A DNA stretch of 63,894 nt, the filler included, from Perkinsus olseni (taxonomy: Eukaryota): NCBI GenBank assembly GCA_013115125.1. It is 10 parts of 10 records of this genome, joined end to end, with 100 filler letters (N's around TTAATTAATTAA, not from the genome) between each part and the next. Parts side by side here need not be neighbours in the genome. Positions count along the whole stretch, not along the records: positions 8,807 to 40,800 come from JABANN010000406.1; 9 more parts are not named here. One strand, 5' to 3'. Under the pieces are notes generated by a model. It had not been told where the DNA came from. It was given only the letters and a program-made list of their open reading frames with translations, and ran no database searches. Numbering within the stretch: the first letter of the stretch is position 1; every line of letters starts with the position of its first letter. Below, piece after piece: positions 2,104 to 59,450 of this stretch. The translations under genes and the position numbers were made by a program.

Positions 2104-2203
2104 NNNNNNNNNNNNNNNNNNNNNNNNNNNNNNNNNNNNNNNNNNNNTTAATTAATTAANNNNNNNNNNNNNNNNNNNNNNNNNNNNNNNNNNNNNNNNN
2201 NNN

Positions 2204-3204
2204 TTCACCCGTTCGACCACTTCATAAACCCCTTCATACTTATGGGTCATCCTCTGCTTAAAGCCGGTAGCCCCATAATGAGGTTTAAACAGGACCTTAT
2301 CGCCCACTTGAAGTTCCTCAGACTCGGAGGGATTGTCTCGGAGAGCCCTGGAATCACTAGCCGCATGAGAAAAAGCATTTGCACGCCTTCGCACATCCAA
2401 CAAATGAGATCGCCATTGCTCAATCTGAGCCGCACTCTTCCTCAACTTAGGATCGGTCGCCATCAACGGTTGAGCCTCAATGATGCTAGCATCCGCTGGC
2501 ATCCGCATCTCTTGCCCACAGACGTAATTAAATGGACTGGTGGCAGTACTCCCGTTGGCAGTCGCCCTCATAGCCCACAAGGCAAGGGGTAACTGATCAT
2601 CCCAATCCGAAGACTCAAGATCCACTAGGCTGATCAGCGCCGACTTGAGTGTACCAATTCCTCTCTCAGTCGCTCCCTGAGATTGGGGATGATAAATCAC
2701 CCCCGTTCTGCTCTTTAGGCCTATAATAGACCACAGAGTAGATAGGAACTTTCCGGTAAACACCCTATCATTATCCGAGGACAGCTGTCGCGGCAGACCG
2801 ATATACGAGAATACTCCACCTATCAGACACCTTGCAGTTGATTCTGCCGTTGGACTTCGCAGGGGAAAGGCGAAGGGGTAACGGCTAGATAGATCCAAAC
2901 AAAATAGGATATATCTATTCCCCCTTTTACTAGCCCGCACTGGTCCAGTAAAATCAATCTGTAATGTATCCCACAAGTCGGTAACTCTAAAGCCCTGCTG
3001 CTTGACCCTTAATGTCCTCCCTTTTAGAAGTTGACATTTGGGGCAACTCTTTATGAAGTCCTTAATCTGCTGCTTAGCATTCGGCCAATAATATCGGCGA
3101 AACAACTGGTTGCAGGTTTTATTGAACCCCATATGAGCACCCGTAGGTCCAGCATGCCACTCTTCAATGATTTCTTGACGGTGCTCAGGTGGCACTATCA
3201 CTCT
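2204..3204 (-). mobile_element. Ty3/gypsy-like integrase fragment
   Basis: HHCC zinc finger (WH..GAHMG..YYWP..CPKC), IDFTGP, SSDNDRVF, YHPQSQGATER and a GPY/F-like C-terminus (GDKVL..KYEGVYEVVE). Confidence 0.9.
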
Positions 3205-3304
3205 NNNNNNNNNNNNNNNNNNNNNNNNNNNNNNNNNNNNNNNNNNNNTTAATTAATTAANNNNNNNNNNNNNNNNNNNNNNNNNNNNNNNNNNNNNNNN
3301 NNNN

Positions 3305-4305
3305 CCCTTGGATGTGGAACCCGGATTTGTCGCCGTGGACTTGGAACCCGGAAAGGCTTAGCACTTTAATTGGCTCCTGGTGTTGAGGTTATCCCTCCGG
3401 ACTCTGTGGTACCTGAGGAAGATCCTGAAATGTCTGGCCTGCTACCGGACACTATGGTGAAGCCTCTCATCGCCACGATAGTTTTGTGCCCATTATGGTC
3501 GTGGGATAAACTCCGAGAAGCCCAAGAGCAAGACCGAGTAGTTCGAGAAGTTCGTGATCGAGTTTTGGTAGACGCCCCGCTTGGTCGCAAGGAGTTTACC
3601 TCTCGTCTATATATGCCTTATAGACGTATCTGGTCGGTCTTGGACGTTTGTGATGGAGTTTTGGTGCGCCTCCTGAAGACGGATCCCTTGGAACCCGTCC
3701 GCTGTGTAGCCGTGGTTCCTACCTCCTTGCGGAAGGAAGCTGTTGCTTATTATCATGATGAGAAGGGTCACTTTGCCGAGAAGCGCATGCTTGAGAACAT
3801 GAAGCCTACGCTGTATTGGCCCAACATGCACGTCGAGATCAACGACTACTTACAGCAGTGCACTGGTTGTACTGTTGCTCGTCCTGGTCGTCCGATTCCA
3901 TCCCCTTTGGTTCCGGTTCCGGTAGGTAGGCCTTGGCATACGTTAGCTGCGGATTACTTGGAGATTACCCCGCCCGTTGACGGCAAGAAGTACTTGTTAG
4001 TGTTGCAGGATTATTTCACCAAGTGGGCTGAAGCTTATCCGCTTCAGCGGGCGACGGTGGAAGAAACCCTGCCTCATCTCTTGAACCTCTTCTCCAAGTT
4101 TGGCCCTCCTGTCCGCATACATTCAGATCAAGGCCCCCAGTTTGAGTCCATCCTCTTCAATCGGGTGATGGAAGCCTTGGGGATAAAACGGTCGCGTTCC
4201 TCCGTCTATCATCCCCAGGGTAATGGTCTAGCCGAGCGATTTAATCGTTCGTTGCTCGACATGCTACGCCGGCACATTGGGATCCCCGATTGGGTATCTC
4301 ATCTG
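3305..4305 (+). mobile_element. Ty3/gypsy-like integrase fragment
   Basis: YYHDEKGH..LYWPNM..CTGC, LAADYL, QDYFTKWAEAYPL, IHSDQGPQF, YHPQGNGLAERFNRSL. Confidence 0.92.
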
Positions 4306-4405
4306 NNNNNNNNNNNNNNNNNNNNNNNNNNNNNNNNNNNNNNNNNNNNTTAATTAATTAANNNNNNNNNNNNNNNNNNNNNNNNNNNNNNNNNNNNNNN
4401 NNNNN

Positions 4406-5406
4406 GCAGTGGTGCAACCTAGTGAGGTCAGAGCGGCGACTAGTGTGAAGTTGGATGAGAAAGGTTATACTGTAGATTGCCCTGTCATGAGTGCTCGCTC
4501 TGTGATGCCTTACGTCGAACCCCGAAGGAGAAGGAGTCGCAGTAAGGAGATTGCTATCCATAGGAGAATCCTCATTGCTGTCCATGAGGGAAAGTTTGCT
4601 CCTATTGATGTTGCTTCAGCGTCCGTTATCAACGAAGTCGTGCTGGTTGACAAAGGGTGCCCGAGCGGAGAGGGTCCTTCTACGATTCCTATCTATGATA
4701 TGACGGATGCCGACATCAAGAAGCGTTTCCGAGTAACGCTTGACTGCCGGAGGTTGAACTGCATGAGGCTTGTGAAGAAGCCGAACTGCCCTGGTGAGTA
4801 TATGTGGGTCCTGCCTTCTGATATGGCGGAAACCTGGAGGTTGGAGTCCTCAGTTACTCAGAGTCAGAACAATGCTTTTCTGACTCTCCGCGAGTGGCCT
4901 GGCCACTTGCGGAAGTTCTATTTCAAGATTGACTTATCTGATGCATTCTCATCAGTAAGAATTGATAAGGATCTATGGGGCTTGTTCTGTTGCCGCACTT
5001 ATGATGAGTTCGGTCAGGAACACCATTGGTGTTGTCGCGTCATCCCTCAGGGATATAAATATTCCCCGATCCTCTTTTCGCGGGTGGTATCTGAAGTGCT
5101 GGAGGCAGCTCGTCAAGAATGTAAACGTCTCGGTTTGGATGTCAAATTAACTCACTTCCAAGACGACGTTCTAGGTGGTGCTGCTGATCTGGATACTGTG
5201 ACTAAGGCGAAGGAGGTGGTTGAGCGGCTCTTCATGGAGCGTGGTTTCTCGGTTGCTCCTCATAAGTCTCAGCTTGGAGATGAGGTAGTCTTTTGTGGTT
5301 TGAAGTGCCTTCGTGGGGAGGTTCGTCCTTCAGAGCGCAAGGTCTTGACCACTGCCATTGTGACGGCTGCTTGCGTTGACTTCAACAAGTTGACTGATAC
5401 TGAGGA
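4406..5406 (+). mobile_element. Retrotransposon reverse transcriptase fragment (gypsy/DIRS-like)
   Basis: FRVTLDCRRLN, FKIDLSDAFSSV, IPQGYKYSPILF, HFQDDVL, GFSVAPHKS, FCG. Confidence 0.88.
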
Positions 5407-5506
5407 NNNNNNNNNNNNNNNNNNNNNNNNNNNNNNNNNNNNNNNNNNNNTTAATTAATTAANNNNNNNNNNNNNNNNNNNNNNNNNNNNNNNNNNNNNN
5501 NNNNNN

Positions 5507-6321
5507 CTTTCTTGGCCATGTCCTCGAGACGGAGGAAGATGATGGCGTTGTCAGCCGGCGCACGACCTCGAGGGGCTTCGCGAAAGGGCTCCACGGCAGC
5601 ATGCTCGAGAGCCTCGAAGTGGACCTTGAGGATCTTCTTCTCCGAAGAGTTGGGGTCCGAGACAACGTTGATGAGAGGAGTACACTGGCGAGGGTAGCTG
5701 TTCTTGACCGCAATGCTGCAAGCACAATGGCCAGCATTGTCAGCGATGGGGCTAGGCTCACCCTCAGCACTGCTAGGTGACACAGTTGAGAGGCCAGTGA
5801 TCGGGATCCCATGGTCACTTACCATGCGGATGCCCAGATCAGAGAAAAGGTTCCTCCCCAGGATGCAGGAGGGCTGACAGCCCGGCACCACCAGGAACCG
5901 CAGGGGCAGGTCGCAGAGTTGGGTACCGTCGAAGGAGCAGCGGAGTGTGATGAGGGTGCTACTTGAGAGCAGTTGACCATCGCCGAACTTGATGGAGATG
6001 GAACTGGGAAGCACCACAGTGCTGCTCGGCTCAACGGCATCTCCGGGCGACGACGGTGAGGACGACACCTCTGGTCTGCATGTGGTAGAGACTCACACTG
6101 CCAAGGCTGTCATCTCCAGCGACTCACAAGCCACATGTGTGAGTGCCACTACGCGCTTCGTCAACTCCCTGCCAAGGGATCCCACTATCGAGCTCCGCAT
6201 TGGTACTCATAAGCGCTACTGCCCGCTTACTGGCCTGGTTGATAGTGGTGCCAACGTGTCTCTCATCAGTGCGTCAACAGTTGCCTTCCTTGGCCGAGCG
6301 AAGGCAGGGATTGCTTCCTGA
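5507..6321. mobile_element. Rearranged retrotransposon aspartic-protease/RT-start fragment (halves on opposite strands)
   Basis: + strand: GLVDSGANVSLIS. - strand: IKFGDG..FLVVPG..ILGRNL, followed by PFREAPR..LRLEDMAKK. Confidence 0.7.
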
Positions 6322-8598: not shown

Positions 8599-8806
8599 AT
8601 CTATACTTGCTTGAAATTTCTTGCACGCGATGGATACAGAGTTGACATTGTTTCATCCATTCGTTGAGTTCTTGAGAAATCAAATGCTATGGGCATTGAC
8701 TAGTTTNNNNNNNNNNNNNNNNNNNNNNNNNNNNNNNNNNNNNNNNNNNNTTAATTAATTAANNNNNNNNNNNNNNNNNNNNNNNNNNNNNNNNNNNNNN
8801 NNNNNN

Positions 8807-9489: not shown

Positions 9490-11071
9490 TCAGCCGAAAA
9501 AGTCGTCCACGCTCGGACCCGGAGCCGCCTTCGAACCCTGCGCGGGGTCTTGCCCCTGACACAACCCAAGCTCAGCAACGGTCTGGCGAGGTCGATCGTT
9601 CCCTTACAGCAGAGGTATCCTGATGATGCTCTCCAGCCTGGGCACCGACATCGATCGGGATAAGCTTCCATCCATAGAGAGACGGCAGTAACTAGAAAGG
9701 GAATGGGTTGACGCAGAATCGAGCGCCCAAGAACATCAATAACAACCAATCCCGGTTCAGCTGACCCTATCACGCAGTAACGGAGCACAGAATCGACTCT
9801 TGCCCGGCAAAACCCTCAGTGTGGACTTTTGCTAAGGATGGACTATCTCCACTAGTTTACAGGCCACCAGAAAGAGGGATACGAGCGATCTCCGTACGGC
9901 CATCAGAGGGCATGCCCAGGCAACAAGGCAGCAGGAGTATCTTCCCCGGCATTTTCCAGCTAGACTTCCAGAACCACCGCCTGGGAAAAGATGCTCTTAC
10001 CGATTCCATCATAGTTTGCATGCCCTTGAGATCCCCAGAGCCAGCTTCCACAGATATCCTATTGACTTCGCTTCCCTCTTCCTGCACCAGAAAACACTCC
10101 CACCGAGCGCTCCACCGACCACACACCTCCCGACCTATTTACCTCAGATTTCTGCGCTATTGAAATGAGCAGCTGCTTGCCATCCTCCGAGGGCTCGAGC
10201 TCTACTTTCGAGGGGATGTTAGGGTCAGCATACTCCCGCATCTTCCACAACGTAGCTAACAAAGAAGAACCAATCTCCCTTCGGACGATTGCCTGAGTGC
10301 TGGCAAAAGCCGATTTGGGACCAATCTTCCCCCTGCCCCCGGGCACCGGATCGCCCCCCTTAACAGGGTGAGCTAAATAAGGCAACCACAATCACGCCAA
10401 CACGCTCCTTTCATCGCAGTGAACATACGGAGCGGTCCTGAGTTATTCACTCACACCCAGGAGCACTACCTAGCGAGAGTTTAGTAGACGTGGTAGCTTG
10501 AAGAAAGGAGCCGATGGTCACTGGTGGCAACGATACTGTTACACCTGTTGATCAATAAACCAGCATATACACAATACACAGCCATCCTTCCCCGTGGAAC
10601 AACAAGTGACAGATAGAACCGCTCGAGTAATACAAAAGAGTCTCTCGCAGAATCATTATCTTGGACCGTATCTCATATGATTGTCATAACCGTCGAATTT
10701 ACCATCGAACTGAGCTAGCGAGCGACCTAATCCCGATGATCTTCGATCCATCCTCAGGATATTACTCTTGCCGGGCCCTCCTTTAGGGGAGAACGTCCAC
10801 TTCACCCTCCCTTCTCTCACGACACTGACGCCTCCATCGTTCGCTCTCTCCAAAGCTGGCTGAGAGAATCTTCACGCTCTCGACATCTCATGTAAAAGAA
10901 CAGAGTCCAAAGATACTTAACCCTCACTACCATAATGGCTCGAACATCCAATTTGGCGTTTCGTCCTTCCACAGTAAATCCATCAAAGATTCCCCTGTGA
11001 GGTGGGTGACTAAAAAACGCTGCCGCCGGAATCCTGTTGGCAGCCGCTGCGAGACTCCGCGATACTTGCAT
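9490..11071 (-). CDS. Whirly-family single-stranded nucleic-acid-binding protein with N-terminal presequence (about 8 exons)
   Basis: Hand-spliced: MQVSRSLAAAANRIPAAAFFSH..IFDGFTVEGRNAKLDVRAIM/PALERANDGGVSVVREGRVKWTFSP../..VSLPPVTIGSFL../..KVELEPSEDGKQLLISI../..LLPSLYGW../..VDDFFG*. Colinear with remembered plant Whirly motifs (KGKAAL, REG..F.P, SL....IGS, K..VEP..DG, P.L.GW). Confidence 0.75.
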
Positions 11072-11450
11072 AACGATGGCGATCAAAAAAACTGCGGAGA
11101 CTCGAAAACCGCTTATCGATTAGCGTTGTCGCTCGTGAAAGAAGGCGCAGTCCACAGATCATCTTTGAAGTTCCACATTCTGAGCTGTCAATAAAATAAC
11201 GGTTCAGCATTCCAAAGCTCCCACGCTTATGGCCACCTCATGAGCATTGACGGCCGGCAAGAATCACGCCTTGAAAAAAGCGGATAGCACCGTTCCCCAG
11301 CCAAAGCGATTGATCCAACGCAAGTCGCCTTTCATTGATCATTGATGGCCGAGCGGACATCATGATCCGTTCTCAAAGCTGCGTTAATCAACGTCAACAA
11401 TAGTGGTAATATTCTCCACGTTTAACAAAATCTGTCTCCAATCCTCGATA

Positions 11451-13376
11451 CTACAACCCCGCCCCTGCCCTCGCTTGCATCACTCCCATCTTAATCTCGT
11501 CCGTTACACTCTTCTGCGATGTGCTCACGAAAACTGTATTTGCCTTGGACGAGCTCCCGACCTCTTTTAACGTATCGAAATACTGTGTCACCAGTACCTG
11601 ATGCCAGCCATCGCCGGACGCTCTAACCGACGAAGCCATCGCTGCTTCCAGATAATCCCGGTATCCGCTCACGCTTGGTCGACCTGCTCTAACAGATCTA
11701 CGGGTGAGCTTTCATCGTAACAACCATCATTTCCATGGCTTCCACCGTTCGACTATCGATATCATGGCCGATAACAAGTTCGAACGGACAAAAATCCTTG
11801 AAGGGTGGGCGGTAGTGGATCATCGAGCGACGATCGGGTGACGTTCATTCTTCTTAGTATGTGCGTCGACGGGATTCGGCCTTGCTGCGACTCGCTCTTC
11901 ACAGCAGGCCAAAGCCACGTAACGCGTAAATGCGTTCTCAACTGCGCCATCTCAACCACCAATTGGGGTGGAGACATCCACCCCCTTAGCCCGTTATTGT
12001 TAATACCAATTCCAGAACGTCCTTAGCGGACATCTCATGAATCGCCTCCTGGAAGTCTCCTATCGACTCGCGGAGGCCGTCGACGATAGCCTTACGTTGA
12101 CGAGCCACACCTCGAGACGCAATAATAAGACAGATGGTCCTTCTTTGCACACTCAGGAAGAGAATACGTAGAATTGCACCACCGAGCGGCGAAGGGCGTC
12201 AGTCAAAGATCTTCACTGAAAACAGTGACGTCTCTGGCGTCTGATCTTTGATCTGGTGAAGATTCTCTACCACAAGATCTACAGGCGGCCAGCAAGATGC
12301 TATCGAGAGGACGGCAACTCACCCTGTCCTTGCAGGAACTTCGATTCAGCTTCCGCCTCCGCCTGCTTCACAATGACCACCTTCTCAGCCTCGGCCTTCT
12401 CCGTTGCCGCCACTCTGAAGAGGGACAACGATCATCCACTACTGAAATTGATCGAAAGCGCTGGTGATTGGAGCCCACCTGAGTCTTCGATTGGCGTTGA
12501 TCTCGTTCATGGCGTCTCTGACTTTACGGTTCGGTGAGATATCGGTGACCAAGGCCTGGTTGATCTGGAACCCAAACTCGCTCATGATCTTCTGGAGCTG
12601 GTCCTTCACTTGCTTGGCCACCTAGTCGAGCACAGCGAGAGTGCGAGACTATAACGGAATAGGTGAAACCAGGACGGTAGTAGGGAAAGACGGTTTTCAC
12701 GGGTACGGCTTTGGAAACAGTACCATAACTCGCCCAACATTCCGGTTAGCAGTAAGAAGACCACGGAAAAACCTACCTCATCTTTAGACTCGAAAACGTC
12801 GTCCAACAGCATACCCGGTACCGTCGATCTGACGACATCAAACACATAGGAGTTGATCTGCACCGTCGGGTTGTGGAGGCGATAGAAGGCTTCGTAAATC
12901 TTAGACTTGATAACTTCATATTGAACGGCAACCTGATAGTGAAGAAAAACTCACAGGAACTTGTAATGAACCTGCCTAGCTCCGATCAGAAGCTACTACG
13001 CTGAAGCTAAGTGGCGGATGGTAGGAAGACGGCCGATGAAAGATTGGATGGAAATCAAAACCGGGGGGTTTTGTTCTCGATCAGCCGGTCTCCTCACAGA
13101 CTCGCTCAGGACGGTAAAACGCTCACTTGAATGCTAACAAAGACGTTGTCCTTCGTCTTGGTCTCGCAGGTCATAGACGTCTCCTGGATCCTAACCGAGA
13201 CATCCCCGGCTCTGACGCAGACGCACGGGACGGGCAGACAGAGAAGGCCGGGGTGGGCCAGGCGGTCGAACTTGCCGAATCTGATGAAGGGAGCTACCGG
13301 CACCGGGTCGTGATGTGATGACGTACTTTGTGATGACGGCAACACGATCGTTAGGGACGGTCTGTACGCAACCCAT
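11451..13376 (-). CDS. SPFH/band-7 protein, hypersensitive-induced-response (HIR)-like, multi-exon
   Basis: FGKFDRLAHPGL, CETKTKDNVFV, QINSYVFDVVRSTVP..LDDVFESKDE, LVTDISP..AMNEINA, EKAEAEK..AEAESKFLQG, GVARQRKAIVDGLR, VTQYFDTLKE. Confidence 0.93.
12981..13099. repeat. Dispersed ~120-bp repeat, copy 1 (intronic); copy 2 at 32739-32857
   Basis: Shared blocks TCCGAT.AGAAGCTAC, AGCTAAGTGGCGGATG and GTTCTC.ATC.GCCGGTCTCCTCACAG. Confidence 0.75.
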
Positions 13377-15045
13377 GAGATTGTAAAGAGGGGCTTAGGA
13401 TACTGAGAGGCACCAGAAGCTCTAGTTTTAGCACAGAGAGATAAGATTCGCGCCGAGGAGAAATCGATTAGAATGGCGAGCGCGATATTATCGAGCCGGC
13501 GCGATACTTACTCTGTGTCTCTCGATAAGTGCTGACGGGCGGAAGCAGTCTTTGATAAGTCTCAAGCGGCCTCGGAAGATTCATTTGCTCGTCGGCGGAT
13601 GTCAACTCGTCACCGACTGTGTCATTTGGACGACGGTGGTGAAGGGCGTGTTGGCGACTCATGGGGGCCCTTCACGCAACCGATGCCGGACACCATCCAA
13701 AATCAACTGGACAGGTAAGAGGGTATCTTACCTCTGCGTCATATGCACGGATCAACCTAAGATACCGAGGTGTCCTCCGAGACACATTCATCCACTTCCC
13801 AGTAAAGGAATCTGAGCAGCAGGACCCTTGTCAGCGGCCCCGGAGCACGCCCGACCCCAGCGCGGCCGATTCCACGACCAGAGCTGTGCATACATGGTTC
13901 TTCAAACAGCAACCTGTCGCCATCGAGTCCTTCCATGATCATCACAGCGCCGTTGACAGCGTAAGCGGCCGACGGAAGGTTCGGTCGATGATGTGTTTCG
14001 GAGTGATCAGGTCCCTGTGGTGGAGGCCCCAGCCTGTCCACCGCCAGCTAGTGAATGTCCCATCACGAGGGAATCCTTCGCGATGAGTACAGTGAGTACG
14101 GTGGAGAGTGAGAAGAGTTCGACCAAGATGGGTGGGAACATCGTACGGGGTGCAAGTAAGCGGGGGGAGGGTTCGAGGCCCTTCACACCTGTTAGAGAGA
14201 ACATCGAAAATTGGGTAGGATCTCTCAGTGGAAATGAAGGAAGACGAAAATAACGAGGCCACTATGCCACATGGCAGGCTGCCATTAGAAGCAGTAGCAG
14301 CTAGGGCTGGATGCCCAGTACTTTGAAAACTGCATCACCGTCCTTGTAACCCGTGGTGGCACTCTGGCCTCACCTTTGCATGCTGCACTCTTCCCGTAAA
14401 ACACGGTATGGCCGAGGTAGTCGGCGGTAGTCGTTACAGAGTGAATCGATTAAGATATACTGTAGACGGTCGGGATAAGTTCGGCCATCATCATCTTGCA
14501 TCCCACGTCTCTACCAGTTTTTTGATGAGCAGAAGATGAATAGTATTCCTCCCAAAAATAGTATGGTGGCGTTCCATTAGAACTCAAAAAAGTCGGGAAG
14601 TGTTCGACTCACTCGCTGTAACGATTGTTGGATTCTCAAAATTCTCGAGGTTCGTCGAGCACTCTCGGGCATCACTCTGCTGGTGATTGCACCCCTACGG
14701 CGACATCTATCGGATCGGAGAGGAGTGTGATGAAGGGAGGCCGCAACGGGCGAAGGTAGGCTGTCCGATCTGCAGCTAACCTTATTGAATCACTACGGAG
14801 CACTGCGTACCAAAAGCGCAGACCGTTCGTGTAGCCATCGTGTAGCCATCGTCATAGCACCATGGTTTACTTCGAGTGAATTGCTCGCCCACAATCTTGA
14901 AAGGTTTGTTCTGATGGTGGAGAAGTTTCGAAAATCGCGTCTCGATGCGGTACGACGTGCGGTCGGGGTGATCTCATTTCCCTCAGGTTACGGCGTAGTA
15001 GGGAATCGGTAGACATATCACTGGACAACCCGGGCAGTCACCGTC

Positions 15046-53922: not shown

Positions 53923-54466
53923 TCAATGCATTGCTCTCATCATTCGCTCAGCGAAAGTCGCTTGCTCTTCCTCTAGGCCTGTCCTACTCCTCCTATAGAT
54001 CTCACGCACCATACGTGTGTCGACCCATCTTCCATACTCGGCTATCTGGACGTCGTCGAAGCCGGCGTCATGCAGCAACACCACCCCGGTTCTGCGCATG
54101 CTATGCGTGGTGCAACCCTCCTGGAGGCCCGTTGCCAGACTGACGAGGGCTTTGATGTCGTAGCAAAGCTGATCGTATGTCGCTTTGAAAAGAGGTGCGT
54201 ACGGAGCTGAATCATCCGCGTCGTCGAGCAATAGCTTCAGCCGATGGATAGGACACCATGGGTCGCTACGTCTCCGCAGCGTAGACGCCGGCGAACATGC
54301 ACATCCCATGTGGAGCAGAGAACCAGCTCGCCCGGGGTCAGTCTTGCTCCATTTGATCCGAATACGCAACGACATGCCATTCGGCGGCGCCGAATCGGCA
54401 CAAATCTCACATCATCCCGTCGGAGTTCAGCTACCTCGCGAATCCTCAGTAGAGCGGAGACCCCTG
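53923..54466 (-). pseudogene. Tyrosine recombinase (DIRS/Ngaro-like), catalytic half, frameshifted and 5'-truncated
   Basis: LLRIREVAELRRDDVRF, then a 1-nt frameshift, then SKTD..WCP..PLF..HSMRRTG..GRW..IY. Confidence 0.88.
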
Positions 54467-57351: not shown

Positions 57352-57754
57352 TGAAACTCGGCCAACACGGGAGTGTGGGATTGGCATCACTCTGTGTGAT
57401 AGCTGTGGCCGAAGCGGCTACTAACTTCGCACAGAGAGATGTATGTGTGCGGGGATTGATTACGCTTAGCGGCTGTGCTAAGACGTCTCACCGCTTGCAC
57501 ACATCTCCCGGGCTGGGAGGGAAGAGTTCATCTTTCACACCAATAGATATACCGCAGCTCTTGTGGGAGCCACAGTGACCACTATGCGTAGCCTGCTATT
57601 ATTGTTCTAGTTGGAGCAGTGAATCCTATCCGTGCGTTCGGCATCTGCACGTAAGTATCTTATGTGCTGCGCGTAGACCGTGTGCGTACATTGTGTAGCG
57701 TGCGCACTCCCTTTGTCCCCGTATTTCACTGACGTAACACTACGCGTACTTACA
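57352..57754. mobile_element. ~403-bp insertion in an array spacer, probable solo LTR
   Basis: Interrupts the conserved spacer CTCGACAT|ACAGTC; TGAAA...TTACA ends; no clean TSD. Confidence 0.6.
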
Positions 57755-57870
57755 AACAGTCAGGCGCACCCAAATGCAGTAAGTGAATATGTTGTCTCAC
57801 CTTCAGGTGTACGCGGTTCCTGGCGACAAAAACCGAAGCGCCAGAGCCTCAGTTATATGTTCTCTTCTGT

Positions 57871-57939
57871 GGCTGTGTGGTCTAGTGGTATGATTTTTTC
57901 GGGTGCGAGAGGTCTCGAGTTCGATTCTCGGCTCAGCCC
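57871..57939 (+). pseudogene. tRNA-Pro (CGG) pseudogene
   Basis: Deletion in the 5' anticodon stem. Confidence 0.75.
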
Positions 57940-58040
57940 GCGTTGCGTCGTTTTGAGGCTGAGCACAGCCAATATGGTAGACGGGATCCTTGGGATCACG
58001 GAGCTCACCGGGTCCCCGGATAGAAGTGAATGCTCAGCCT

Positions 58041-58114
58041 GCTGGAATGGTCTAGTTGGTTATGACGACTGCCTAACACGCAGTAGGTCCCGAGTTCGAC
58101 TCTCGGTTCCAGTA
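58041..58114 (+). tRNA. tRNA-Val (AAC)
   Basis: Intact cloverleaf. Confidence 0.9.
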
Positions 58115-58240
58115 TTACATTGTCTTTCACGTGTACTACATCATGCGCCGAGTCGGAGTTGCTATCGCGTCTTCTGATTCGTACGGTCTCTGGCGATAGA
58201 CACCGATGCACCCAAATCTCATTTATGAGTTGTCCTTTAC

Positions 58241-58312
58241 GGCTCTGTGGTCTAGTGGTATGATTTTTGCTTCAGGTGTGAGAGGTTTCGTGTTCGATTC
58301 TCGACCTAGCCC
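58241..58312 (+). pseudogene. tRNA-Pro-derived copy with CAG loop
   Basis: TTTGC-TT-CAG-GT-GTGAG; acceptor mismatches. Confidence 0.7.
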
Positions 58313-58442
58313 AGGGTTACTCGACATACAGTCGGGCGCACCCAAATGCAGTAAGTGAATATGTTGTCCCACCTTCAGGTGTACGCGGTTCCTGGCGACA
58401 AAAACCGAAGCGCCCGAGCCTCAGTTATATATTTCCTTTTGT

Positions 58443-58514
58443 GGCTGTGTGGTCAAGTGGTATGATTCTCGCTTCAGGTGTGAGAGGTTTCGTGTTCGAT
58501 TCTCGACCTAGCCC
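58443..58514 (+). pseudogene. tRNA-Pro-derived copy with CAG loop
   Basis: CTCGC-TT-CAG-GT-GTGAG; T-stem and acceptor mismatches. Confidence 0.65.
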
Positions 58515-58744
58515 AGGGTTACTCGACATACAGTCGGGCGCACNNNNNNNNNNNNNNNNNNNNNNNNNNNNNNNNNNNNNNNNNNNNNNNNNNNNNNNNN
58601 NNNNNNNNNNNNNNNNNNNNNNNNNNNNNNNNNNNNNNNNCACCCAAATGCAGTAAGTGAATATGCTGTCTCGCCTTCAGGCGTACGCGGTTCCTGGCGA
58701 CGGAAACCGAAGCGCCCGAGCCTCAGTTATATATTTGCTTTTGT

Positions 58745-58816
58745 GGCTGTGTGGTCTAGTGGTATGATTCTCGCTTTGGGTGCGAGAGGTCTCGAGTTCG
58801 ATTCTCGACACAGCCC
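58745..58816 (+). tRNA. tRNA-Pro (TGG)
   Basis: Perfect acceptor GGCTGTG/CACAGCC; CTCGC-TT-TGG-GT-GCGAG. Confidence 0.93.
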
Positions 58817-58874
58817 GCGTTAGGTCGTTTTGCGGTTTTCACCGGGCACCCGGATAGAGATAAATGCTCAGCTT

Positions 58875-58948
58875 GCTGGAATGGTCTAGTTGGTTATGAC
58901 GACTACCTAACACGCAGTAGGTCCCGAGTTCGACTCTCGGTTCCAGTA
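58875..58948 (+). tRNA. tRNA-Val (AAC), one anticodon-stem mismatch
   Basis: ACTAC vs GCAGT. Confidence 0.65.
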
Positions 58949-59074
58949 TTGCACTATCTTTCACGTGTACTACATCATGCGCCGAGTTGGAGTTGGTATC
59001 GCGTCTTCTGATTCGCACGGTCTCTGGCGAGAGACACCGAAGCACCCAAATCTCATTTGTGAGTTGTCCTTTAC

Positions 59075-59146
59075 GGCTGTGTGGTCTAGTGGTATGATTC
59101 TTGCTTCAGGTGTGAAAGGTCTCGTGTTCGAGTTTCAACTCAGCCC
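59075..59146 (+). pseudogene. tRNA-Pro-derived copy with CAG loop, degenerate
   Basis: Disrupted T arm. Confidence 0.75.
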
Positions 59147-59278
59147 GCGATACATGTCACTATACGGTTGGGCGCGCTCAAATGCAGTAAATGAATTTGC
59201 TGTCTCGCCTTCGGGTGTGCACGATTCTTGGCGACAGATACCGAAGCGCCCAAGCCTCAGTTATATCTTTGTTTCTGA

Positions 59279-59350
59279 GGCTGTGTGGTCTAGTGGTATG
59301 ATTCTCGCTTCAGGTGCGAGAGATCTCGAGGTCGATTCTCGACACAGCCG
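59279..59350 (+). pseudogene. tRNA-Pro body with CAG anticodon, stems intact, T54G
   Basis: GGCTGTG/CACAGCC; CTCGC-TT-CAG-GT-GCGAG; T loop reads GTCGATT. Confidence 0.6.
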
Positions 59351-59450
59351 GCATTAGGTCGTATTGCGGCTGTGCACAGCCAATATGGCAGACGGGATCT
59401 TCGGAGCACGAAGCTCACCGGGACCACGGAATGAGATGTCTCTTCAGCTT

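What the first reader, a model, noticed from the sequence alone, without database searches (positions are those of the whole stretch)
9490..11071. Hidden multi-exon Whirly-family gene with an organellar presequence in a non-plant protist
Not visible in the ORF track because it is split into about 8 short exons. The hand-spliced product follows remembered plant Whirly motifs in order: GFTVEGRNAKLDV..P (cf. GYSIYKGKAALTV..P), REGRVKWTFSP (REGMVMLQFAP), SLPPVTIGS (SLSVTEIGS), KVELEPSEDG (KVEPLPDG), LLPSLYGW (VMPYLLGW), and an acidic-aromatic tail DDFFG. The N-terminus is Ala/Arg/Ser-rich with no acidic residues. Known: plant Whirlies bind organellar ssDNA and suppress microhomology rearrangements, and share a fold with trypanosome MRP1/2 RNA matchmakers. 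Inference: a candidate factor for the rearranging, fragmented-rRNA mitochondrial genome of myzozoans. The KGKAAL motif is altered to GRNAKL.
Basis: partly seen in the sequence, partly recalled or inferred. Interest (0 to 1): 0.75.

Follow-up and report, generated by a model that had tools for sequence, protein, structure and literature searches.

The report
Mitochondrial Whirly-like protein of Perkinsus

Summary
Confirmed, with 7 exons rather than about 8. Contigs from 4 studies show six GT-AG joints; the joined frame is open, 217 aa. Named hits are Perkinsus olseni; all five public P. olseni models seen are mis-spliced, fused or partial. The P. marinus ortholog (71% identical over the domain) passes Pfam's Whirly cut-off (25.5 vs 23 bits). 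Its model, built without plant sequences, matches plant WHY2 best (Z 17.2; MRP1/2 12.0) and forms a predicted homotetramer (0.79, best control 0.00). Published proteomics detects it in both mitochondria-enriched replicates, as an oligomer far below mitoribosome size, with a predicted mitochondrial transit peptide. The KGKAAL lysine needed for plant 24-mers is Asn. Best reading: a mitochondrial ssDNA-binding tetramer that protects mtDNA; nucleic-acid binding is inferred only. A role in driving rearrangement or holding rRNA fragments is not supported. Non-plant Whirly domains already sit in automatic databases (oomycetes, euglenozoans, phages), and this scan noted phage and bacterial ones before. 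No paper on an alveolate Whirly was found.

The parts
11072..11093 (-). 5' leader; transcript contigs of 3 studies end at 11091, directly after a genomic AG (11093-11092): possible spliced-leader trans-splice acceptor
   Evidence: spliced-leader trans-splicing in Perkinsus from PMC3101222; no leader sequence was seen, so inferred
10931..11071 (-). exon 1 (aa 1-47): presequence and first strands of the Whirly domain
10985..11071 (-). mitochondrial-type presequence, aa 1-29: no acidic residue, amphipathic (moment 0.62), no hydrophobic signal-peptide core
   Evidence: DeepLoc2.1 'Mitochondrion, mitochondrial transit peptide' for the P. marinus ortholog in PMC13623125 S9
10949..10966 (-). GRNAKL (aa 36-41), counterpart of plant KGKAAL; Asn38 aligns with StWhy2 Lys67
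   Evidence: ungapped HMMER alignment to 3n1h and to the K67A chain 3r9y
10860..10930 (-). intron 1, 71 nt, GT-AG
   Evidence: 4 of 4 runs
10766..10859 (-). exon 2 (aa 48-79)
10545..10765 (-). intron 2, 221 nt, GT-AG
   Evidence: 4 of 4 runs
10470..10544 (-). exon 3 (aa 79-104), carries helix 1 of the fold; skipped in public models P0001 and P0005
10256..10469 (-). intron 3, 214 nt, GT-AG
   Evidence: 4 of 4 runs
10143..10255 (-). exon 4 (aa 104-141)
10082..10142 (-). intron 4, 61 nt, GT-AG
   Evidence: 4 of 4 runs
10001..10081 (-). exon 5 (aa 142-168)
9692..10000 (-). intron 5, 309 nt, GT-AG
   Evidence: 4 of 4 runs
9608..9691 (-). exon 6 (aa 169-196): end of helix 2 (LPSLYGW) and start of the variable linker
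9556..9607 (-). intron 6, 52 nt, GT-AG
   Evidence: 4 of 4 runs
9490..9555 (-). exon 7 (aa 197-217 and TGA): linker and conserved acidic-aromatic tip
   Evidence: last 10 residues 9 of 10 identical to P. marinus against 9 of 28 in the linker
9665..10990 (-). Whirly domain (aa 28-177), two beta4-alpha repeats, spread over exons 1-6

Best explanation
A single-copy nuclear gene for a Whirly-type nucleic-acid-binding protein of the mitochondrial matrix. Shown: it is transcribed and spliced into 7 exons; the product has the Whirly domain and fold; the P. marinus ortholog is made, is recovered in the organelle pellet and runs partly as an oligomer. Inferred: the presequence takes it into the mitochondrion; four subunits assemble through their helices into the whirligig; the tetramer binds single-stranded mtDNA without sequence preference during replication and break repair, blocks spurious annealing as plant WHY2 does, and uses a conserved acidic-aromatic tip on a floppy linker to contact partner enzymes. 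Without the Lys67 equivalent it probably stays a tetramer rather than forming cooperative 24-mers.
For: Splicing: (6 joints, 4 of 4 runs), open frame. Family: ortholog P0009 scores 25.5 bits on PF08536, cut-off 23, model positions 5-136 of 136; PDB hits StWhy2 E 5.7e-5, AtWHY2 1.3e-4, StWhy1 2.9e-3, collinear over aa 27-178. Fold from an alignment holding no plant sequence: Foldseek AtWHY2 E 1.5e-11; Z 17.2, rmsd 2.7, 151 aligned to StWhy2; 16.3 StWhy1; 12.0 MRP1/2; 8.5 Pur-alpha; the Atlas's own model also gives WHY1 first. Homotetramer score 0.79, best of 3 controls 0.00; runs agree in at least 83% of contacts, pLDDT at least 72; the mark was reached by 21 of 30 solved homo-pairs and 0 of 23 single chains; the interface is helical; the pass may come from memory of solved Whirlies. 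Location: PMC13623125 S1, S2, S9: C5LCT1 in both mitochondria-enriched replicates, DeepLoc mitochondrion; summed iBAQ pellet/whole cell 68 and 15, against 0.88 for one citrate synthase, 0.006 and 0.0003 for two PCNAs, 0.0003 for one PGK group. Oligomer: 48% of replicate 1 signal in slices 19-26, peak slice 21 = 125 kDa soluble scale, 71 kDa membrane scale, beside the citrate synthase peak; a tetramer would be about 83 kDa. Conservation 71% domain, 32% linker, 90% tip; plant Whirlies also end in a disordered acidic/aromatic tail (PMC6963530).
Against: No binding to DNA or RNA is shown, and the DNA-contact residues of StWhy2 were not mapped (the structure paper was not read). The window's own product was not scanned whole: the exon-3-less model scores 14.6 bits (E 0.029, under the cut-off), a 90% identical allele and the six single exons gave no Pfam hit. 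The hallmark lysine is absent. The domain is not basic (19 D/E, 18 K/R). The model is middling (mean pLDDT 57, 1 of 5 models folded). The pellet also holds ER and the paper does not rule out the cryptic plastid; pellet and whole-cell samples differ in strain, detergent and run, my five control rows were hand-picked and come from different replicates. 43% (replicate 1) and 60% (replicate 2) of the signal runs at lower mass. Plant Whirlies also act on RNA.
Confidence: 0.62

Rival explanations
1. Mitochondrial RNA chaperone or matchmaker, working like trypanosome MRP1/MRP2: the tetramer presents short RNAs and helps the rRNA fragments (or imported rRNA pieces) anneal during mitoribosome assembly, then leaves.
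For: Same fold class (Z 12.0 to 2gia). The Atlas lists a mostly euglenozoan cluster with both Whirly (62%) and MRP (25%) Pfam hits as second feature hit, score 0.88, a lead only. Plant Whirlies associate with RNA and splicing factors, also in algae and liverwort (PMC9070903). Perkinsus rRNA is fragmented (PMC9550989).
Against: Sequence and fold are closer to WHY2 than to MRP (Z 17.2 vs 12.0; no MRP chain among the sequence hits at E up to 10). No RNA editing in Perkinsus mitochondria, so no guide-RNA job. No co-migration with the mitoribosome, which excludes a stable subunit but not a transient factor.
Confidence: 0.22
2. It is not mitochondrial: it goes to the cryptic plastid or acts in the nucleus, as plant Whirlies partly do.
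For: The enriched fraction is an organelle pellet with ER in it. The presequence has few arginines. Plant Whirlies reach plastid and nucleus.
Against: No signal-peptide-like hydrophobic core and no transmembrane stretch; DeepLoc mitochondrion for the ortholog; two nuclear PCNAs are strongly depleted from the pellet in which this protein is enriched. The Perkinsus plastid is thought to lack DNA and needs a bipartite leader (recalled, no call).
Confidence: 0.08
3. It promotes mtDNA recombination and rearrangement (a strand-annealing or melting factor), and so helps explain scrambled myzozoan mitogenomes.
For: WHY2 can melt duplex DNA (PMC7549692). The lysine needed in plants for 24-mers and for protection against breaks is missing. 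Perkinsus mtDNAs share little synteny between species.
Against: Within a species the mtDNA is near-identical with no heteroplasmy; plant Whirlies act against microhomology rearrangement; algal Whirly-like proteins also lack the motif.
Confidence: 0.08

Closest known systems
Plant mitochondrial WHY2 (StWhy2, PDB 3n1h; AtWHY2, 4kop) and plastid WHY1/WHY3 (1l3a, 4koo, 4koq); Pfam PF08536
   Same: Collinear domain at 20-24% identity, beta4-alpha twice, predicted helix-mediated homotetramer, N-terminal organelle leader, disordered acidic-aromatic C-terminus.
   Different: Alveolate host; KGKAAL is GRNAKL (GKNAKL in P. marinus) with Asn at Lys67; about 6 residues shorter at the YDWEK loop; one copy found; no binding data.
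WHIRLY-like proteins of green algae and Marchantia
   Same: Whirly structure without the KGKAAL motif, single copy, organelle-targeted (PMC9070903).
   Different: Outside the green lineage, where the family is said to have arisen (PMC11135702, a survey of photosynthetic lineages). No algal sequence was compared here.
Trypanosoma brucei MRP1/MRP2 (PDB 2gia, 2gje; Pfam PF09387)
   Same: Fold (Z 12.0), tetramer, mitochondrial matrix of a non-plant protist.
   Different: 12-14% identity; heterotetramer binding guide RNAs for editing, which Perkinsus lacks.
Whirly-domain proteins of phages, oomycetes and euglenozoans in automatic annotation (e.g. UniProt A0A6J5NR37)
   Same: Same fold (Foldseek E 2.4e-5, TM 0.78 by target); Atlas clusters with PF08536 at 92% (commonest Oomycota) and 62% (commonest Euglenozoa).
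   Different: Uncharacterised; no sequence-level link found, so no phylogeny was possible.
Bacterial and mitochondrial SSB (OB fold, PF00436)
   Same: Layout only: tetrameric core, variable linker, conserved acidic tip ending in Phe-rich residues (the SSB layout is recalled).
   Different: Unrelated fold; no OB-fold match among the top fold hits.

Membership tests
Whirly domain family (Pfam PF08536) | HMM score over the gathering cut-off (23 bits) across the domain | tested here: inconclusive
   Met by the P. marinus ortholog (25.5 bits, 5-136/136). The window's joined product was not scanned; its exon-3-less model scored 14.6 and a 90% identical allele gave no hit. Membership is carried over from the ortholog, 106 of 149 identical in the domain.
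Whirly domain family (Pfam PF08536) | beta4-alpha-beta4-alpha fold closest to solved Whirlies | tested here: met
   Model of the ortholog: strands and helices in that order; Z 17.2, rmsd 2.7, 151 aligned; Foldseek E 1.5e-11.
Whirly domain family (Pfam PF08536) | Homotetramer | tested here: inconclusive
   Predicted 0.79 vs best control 0.00, possibly from memory; native-gel peak at 71-125 kDa by scale fits about 83 kDa but does not count subunits.
Whirly domain family (Pfam PF08536) | N-terminal organelle targeting peptide | tested here: met
   Composition and amphipathicity; DeepLoc and organelle-pellet proteomics of the ortholog. Import itself not shown.
Whirly domain family (Pfam PF08536) | Disordered acidic/aromatic C-terminal end | tested here: met
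   pLDDT under 50 for aa 175-214; conserved DDFFG tip; feature named in PMC6963530.
Whirly domain family (Pfam PF08536) | Sequence-independent ssDNA binding | not testable with these tools
   No assay; contact residues not mapped.
Canonical land-plant WHIRLY (KGKAAL class) | KGKAAL motif with the second lysine (StWhy2 K67) for 24-mers | tested here: not met
   Asn38 aligns with K67 (role from PMC3245945). Filed as Whirly-like, not as a canonical plant WHIRLY. A one-residue shift at 24% identity is possible; basic residues lie at 37 and 40.
Kinetoplastid MRP1/MRP2 (PF09387) | Sequence match to the MRP family | tested here: inconclusive
   No PF09387 hit listed for P0001, the allele or P0009; HMMER filters drop weak matches. 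Fold match second tier (Z 12.0).
Kinetoplastid MRP1/MRP2 (PF09387) | Guide-RNA matchmaking in U-indel editing | tested here: not met
   Perkinsus mitochondrial transcripts are not edited (PMC9550989).
Myzozoan mitoribosomal proteins | Co-migration with the mitoribosome at about 2 MDa | tested here: not met
   Ortholog has zero signal above slice 35 (replicate 1) and 31 (replicate 2) of 60; mitoribosomal subunits peak in the top slices.

The most novel reading that the evidence does not exclude
Whirly is not a green-lineage invention but an old mitochondrial single-strand binder kept in scattered protists (Perkinsus, probably ciliates, oomycetes, euglenozoans, where it became MRP1/2). In Perkinsus it has replaced the OB-fold mtSSB as the hub of mtDNA replication through its SSB-like acidic tip, and its retention or loss may track which myzozoans keep a single orderly mitogenome and which scramble it.
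Probability: 0.2. Interest if true: 0.75.

Novelty: new variant of a known kind. Interest (0 to 1): 0.55.

Why it matters
Reviews call Whirlies plant-specific or unique to plants and place their origin in the green ancestor. An expressed, conserved, probably mitochondrial Whirly-like protein in an alveolate shows that this is too narrow and links plant Whirlies, trypanosome MRP and phage Whirlies into one testable history. For Myzozoa, the one apicomplexan SSB paper read describes an apicoplast protein (PMC2978346), and a review of apicomplexan mitogenomes has no occurrence of 'single-strand', 'DNA polymerase' or 'repair', so a named candidate for mtDNA upkeep is useful. The surprise is tempered: the P. 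marinus record already meets Pfam's cut-off, and non-plant Whirly domains are visible in automatic databases.

Tried and rejected
Single exons against Pfam: 0 of 6 hit. Own genome with PF08536: no match although the gene is there, so the empty results for SSB PF00436 and MRP PF09387 say nothing about absence. No entry named SSB, Twinkle or RecA in the mitochondria-predicted table S9; names only, weak. Second copy in the genome: one weak hit (E 0.19, 3 stops; L007), rejected as chance. Word-based and full HMMER searches found only Perkinsus forms, one unnamed 158-aa relative (P0008, E 1.6e-4) and one repeat-like chance hit (P0007, dropped); plant Whirlies were missed too, so the lack of dinoflagellate or apicomplexan hits is no evidence of loss. 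PHROGs, GenBank phages and viral contigs gave no sequence link. L010, a bacterial hit, lies antisense to an unrelated gene: chance. AlphaFold of the ciliate-type relative failed (pLDDT 28): no verdict. Atlas search with the exon-3-less model gave nothing. No cover between 11124 and 11345 in the four runs fits a break between this gene and the upstream Band-7 gene but is not counted as proof. Paper searches with a minimum number of terms listed no paper holding 'whirly' and were uninformative.

Full report
1. The gene. Of 24 runs listed as holding the stretch I laid 4, from 4 studies; one is on record as RNA, two are guessed RNA, one is of unknown kind. All 4 show the same six joints, all GT-AG on the minus strand, with no other letters at the listed thresholds; two runs carry the whole coding region in one contig. 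With the cut placed at the GT-AG ends there are 7 exons and introns of 71, 221, 214, 61, 309 and 52 nt. The joined frame is 654 nt and open, 217 aa, 23 kDa. Contigs of 3 studies end at 11091, just after a genomic AG, 20 nt before the ATG; Perkinsus trans-splices a leader (PMC3101222, passages), so this may be the acceptor. No leader sequence was seen.

2. Organism and public models. Exon 1 hits only Perkinsus olseni proteins, 94-100% identical (3 of 56 candidates). None of the five P. olseni models seen matches the RNA: P0001 skips exon 3; P0003 and P0005 fuse the gene to the upstream Band-7 gene under the name 'HIR complex subunit', and P0005 also lacks exons 1 and 3; P0002 and P0004 are pieces that run into introns. 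The last 217 residues of P0003 are a complete allele, 195 of 216 identical. A search of 1.84 billion representatives gave 5 hits at E up to 0.001; cluster look-up led to the full P. marinus ortholog Pmar_PMAR011811 / C5LCT1, 214 aa (P0009). Identity to the window's product by region: presequence 14 of 27, domain 106 of 149, linker 9 of 28, last ten residues 9 of 10. One locus was found in the own genome, plus one weak hit rejected as chance.

3. Family and fold. P0009 passes Pfam's cut-off for Whirly over nearly the whole model (25.5 bits against 23, E 1.3e-5). Against it: P0001 scores 14.6 bits, the P. olseni allele and the single exons give no Pfam hit, and the joined product itself was not scanned. 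In the PDB the top sequence hits are always plant Whirlies: E 0.0014 for P0001, 0.0026 for the allele, in one collinear stretch, 5.7e-5 for P0009, 1.6e-4 for the profile. AlphaFold2 on an alignment of three Perkinsus sequences and one unnamed relative gave a middling model (mean pLDDT 57, core mostly 60-83, 1 of 5 models folded) with four strands, a helix, four strands, a helix and disordered ends. All 16 Foldseek matches at E up to 0.001 rank above Pur-alpha (rank 17); those shown are plant Whirlies, best 1.5e-11. Among 48,161 chains the order is StWhy2 (Z 17.2, rmsd 2.7, 151 aligned), StWhy1 (16.3), MRP1/2 (12.0), Pur-alpha (8.5). Four copies of the domain scored 0.79 against a best control of 0.00, with a helix-to-helix interface; the mark was reached by 21 of 30 solved homo-pairs and 0 of 23 single chains, and the pass may reflect memory of solved Whirlies. 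In ungapped alignments Asn38 faces StWhy2 Lys67, the residue needed for 24-mers and cooperative binding but not for tetramers or binding to short ssDNA (PMC3245945, passages). Algal and liverwort proteins also lack the motif and are called WHIRLY-like (PMC9070903, passages). I file the protein the same way.

4. Where it is. The first 29 residues have no acidic residue, a helical moment of 0.62 and no hydrophobic core; no transmembrane stretch follows. The P. marinus complexome study (PMC13623125; I read the abstract, sections 6, 7 and 11, a term search of the main text, and rows of supplements S1, S2 and S9; S1 is cut in the copy held) never uses the word whirly, but its tables hold C5LCT1 in both mitochondria-enriched replicates, with a DeepLoc call of mitochondrion and transit peptide. 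Summed iBAQ, pellet over whole cell: 68 and 15 for this protein; 0.88 for one citrate synthase; 0.006 and 0.0003 for two PCNAs; 0.0003 for one PGK group. These are five hand-picked rows from different replicates, and the samples differ in strain, detergent and run, so only the direction counts; the fumarate hydratase rows were left out because the protein groups differ between tables. The pellet also contains ER. In replicate 1, 48% of the signal is in slices 19-26 with a peak at slice 21 (125 kDa soluble scale, 71 kDa membrane scale), next to citrate synthase, and 43% in slices 7-18, where many small proteins pile up; replicate 2 gives 34% and 60%. A tetramer would be about 83 kDa. Nothing lies above slice 35, whereas 67 of 70 mitoribosomal proteins peak near 2 MDa. 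The UniProt header reads 'Uncharacterized protein, PE=3', which suggests that an automatic family rule has already touched it (inference).

5. How it most likely works. Shown: expression, splicing, fold, recovery of the ortholog with organelles, partial oligomer. Inferred from the plant family (PMC3245945, PMC7549692, PMC6963530; passages): import into the matrix, a four-fold tetramer that stacks ssDNA bases between neighbouring sheets and keeps resected or replicating mtDNA from false annealing. The conserved tip on a variable linker suggests a docking site for partner enzymes; plant Whirlies have such a tail too, and the comparison with SSB came to me from earlier notes of this scan on phage Whirlies. 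Perkinsus mtDNA fits a stabiliser better than a scrambler: near-identical copies without heteroplasmy within a species, little synteny between species, no editing (PMC9550989; abstract, section 5, passages). An RNA-chaperone role in assembling rRNA fragments is the main rival (0.22) and is not excluded by the gel. Whether it replaces an OB-fold mtSSB is open: the own-genome search for PF00436 was empty, but the same search misses this very gene with its own family model.

6. Spread and origin. The ESM Atlas returns Whirly clusters whose commonest taxa are Oomycota (PF08536 in 92%), Euglenozoa (62%, MRP 25%) and Streptophyta, at scores 0.88-0.89, and by structure WHY1 first, then phage-rich clusters; these are leads, not a range. 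BFVD's only match at E up to 0.001 is a phage protein named Whirly. In metagenomes 2 of 171 pattern matches were confirmed: intronless frames open under the TAA/TAG = Gln code, so probably ciliate, matching the last strand and helix (46% over 35 aa; hhalign 92.9% over 31 columns; Pfam Whirly E 0.12 for one, nothing for the other). Their fold prediction failed, so they remain a lead. No tree could be built; vertical inheritance, transfer from green algae and transfer from phage are all open.

7. What is in print. 'whirly' with 'perkinsus': 0 papers; with 'apicomplexan': 4, with 'dinoflagellate': 6, with 'protist': 32, of which 31 were listed; with MRP2: 3; with phage terms: 5. Judged by titles, and by passages in PMC11135702, PMC4827209, PMC6873476, PMC13392464, PMC6963530 and PMC7549692, none describes a Whirly in an alveolate; two microalgal and amoebal surveys found none outside green algae, while PMC13392464 says that the wider Whirly/Pur-alpha group spans all domains. 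The library lacks most subscription papers, and the 2010 Whirly-DNA structure paper was not read. This scan holds 96 earlier findings with the word Whirly; the 8 shown are phage or bacterial, and look-ups by protist terms and by sequence returned no match for this gene.

8. Verdict. A real, well-supported gene; a Whirly-like protein outside the KGKAAL class, in a lineage where none seems to be described; probably mitochondrial; function inferred. New variant of a known kind. Interest 0.55.

Noticed in passing
window 11430-13500 (minus strand): Upstream Band-7/SPFH gene; two public P. olseni models (P0003, P0005) fuse it to the Whirly-like gene under the name 'HIR complex subunit'. RNA contigs starting at 11091 and the separate P. 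marinus model argue that the fusion is an annotation error.
   Followed up: partly
window 11091-11093: Three studies' transcript contigs end at the same base directly after a genomic AG: likely spliced-leader acceptor.
   Followed up: partly
window 9663-10030: Low-depth contigs in two runs (X19, X1) cover intron 5 unspliced: pre-mRNA, intron retention or DNA.
   Followed up: no
L008:1213-1974, L009:197-1207: Intronless frames open under the ciliate code that share the last strand and helix with the Perkinsus protein; possible ciliate Whirly-like genes, with an acidic insert mid-domain. Fold prediction failed.
   Followed up: partly
P0008 (unnamed ENA protein, 158 aa): Distant relative (E 1.6e-4) of unknown organism, probably lacking its N-terminus, ending in a Phe-Phe tip like the Perkinsus protein.
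   Followed up: partly
window 57600-59400: Tandem repeats that by eye look like a tRNA gene array (seen as repeated pseudo-ORF text); not scanned.
   Followed up: no
window 2152-6092 and 53923-54411: Integrase, reverse-transcriptase and protease-like frames on short contigs, and a tyrosine-recombinase-like frame; retroelement pieces by eye, not tested.
   Followed up: no
window 8707-8806 and other gaps: Scaffold gaps carry a fixed TTAATTAATTAA filler between N runs: an assembly artefact that creates false ORF ends.
   Followed up: no
PMC13623125 table S9: Two 'DNA polymerase I, putative' proteins (C5LBC1, C5LHC5) are in the mitochondria-predicted set and run in slices 24-29, just above the Whirly oligomer peak: candidate partners, overlap may be chance.
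   Followed up: no
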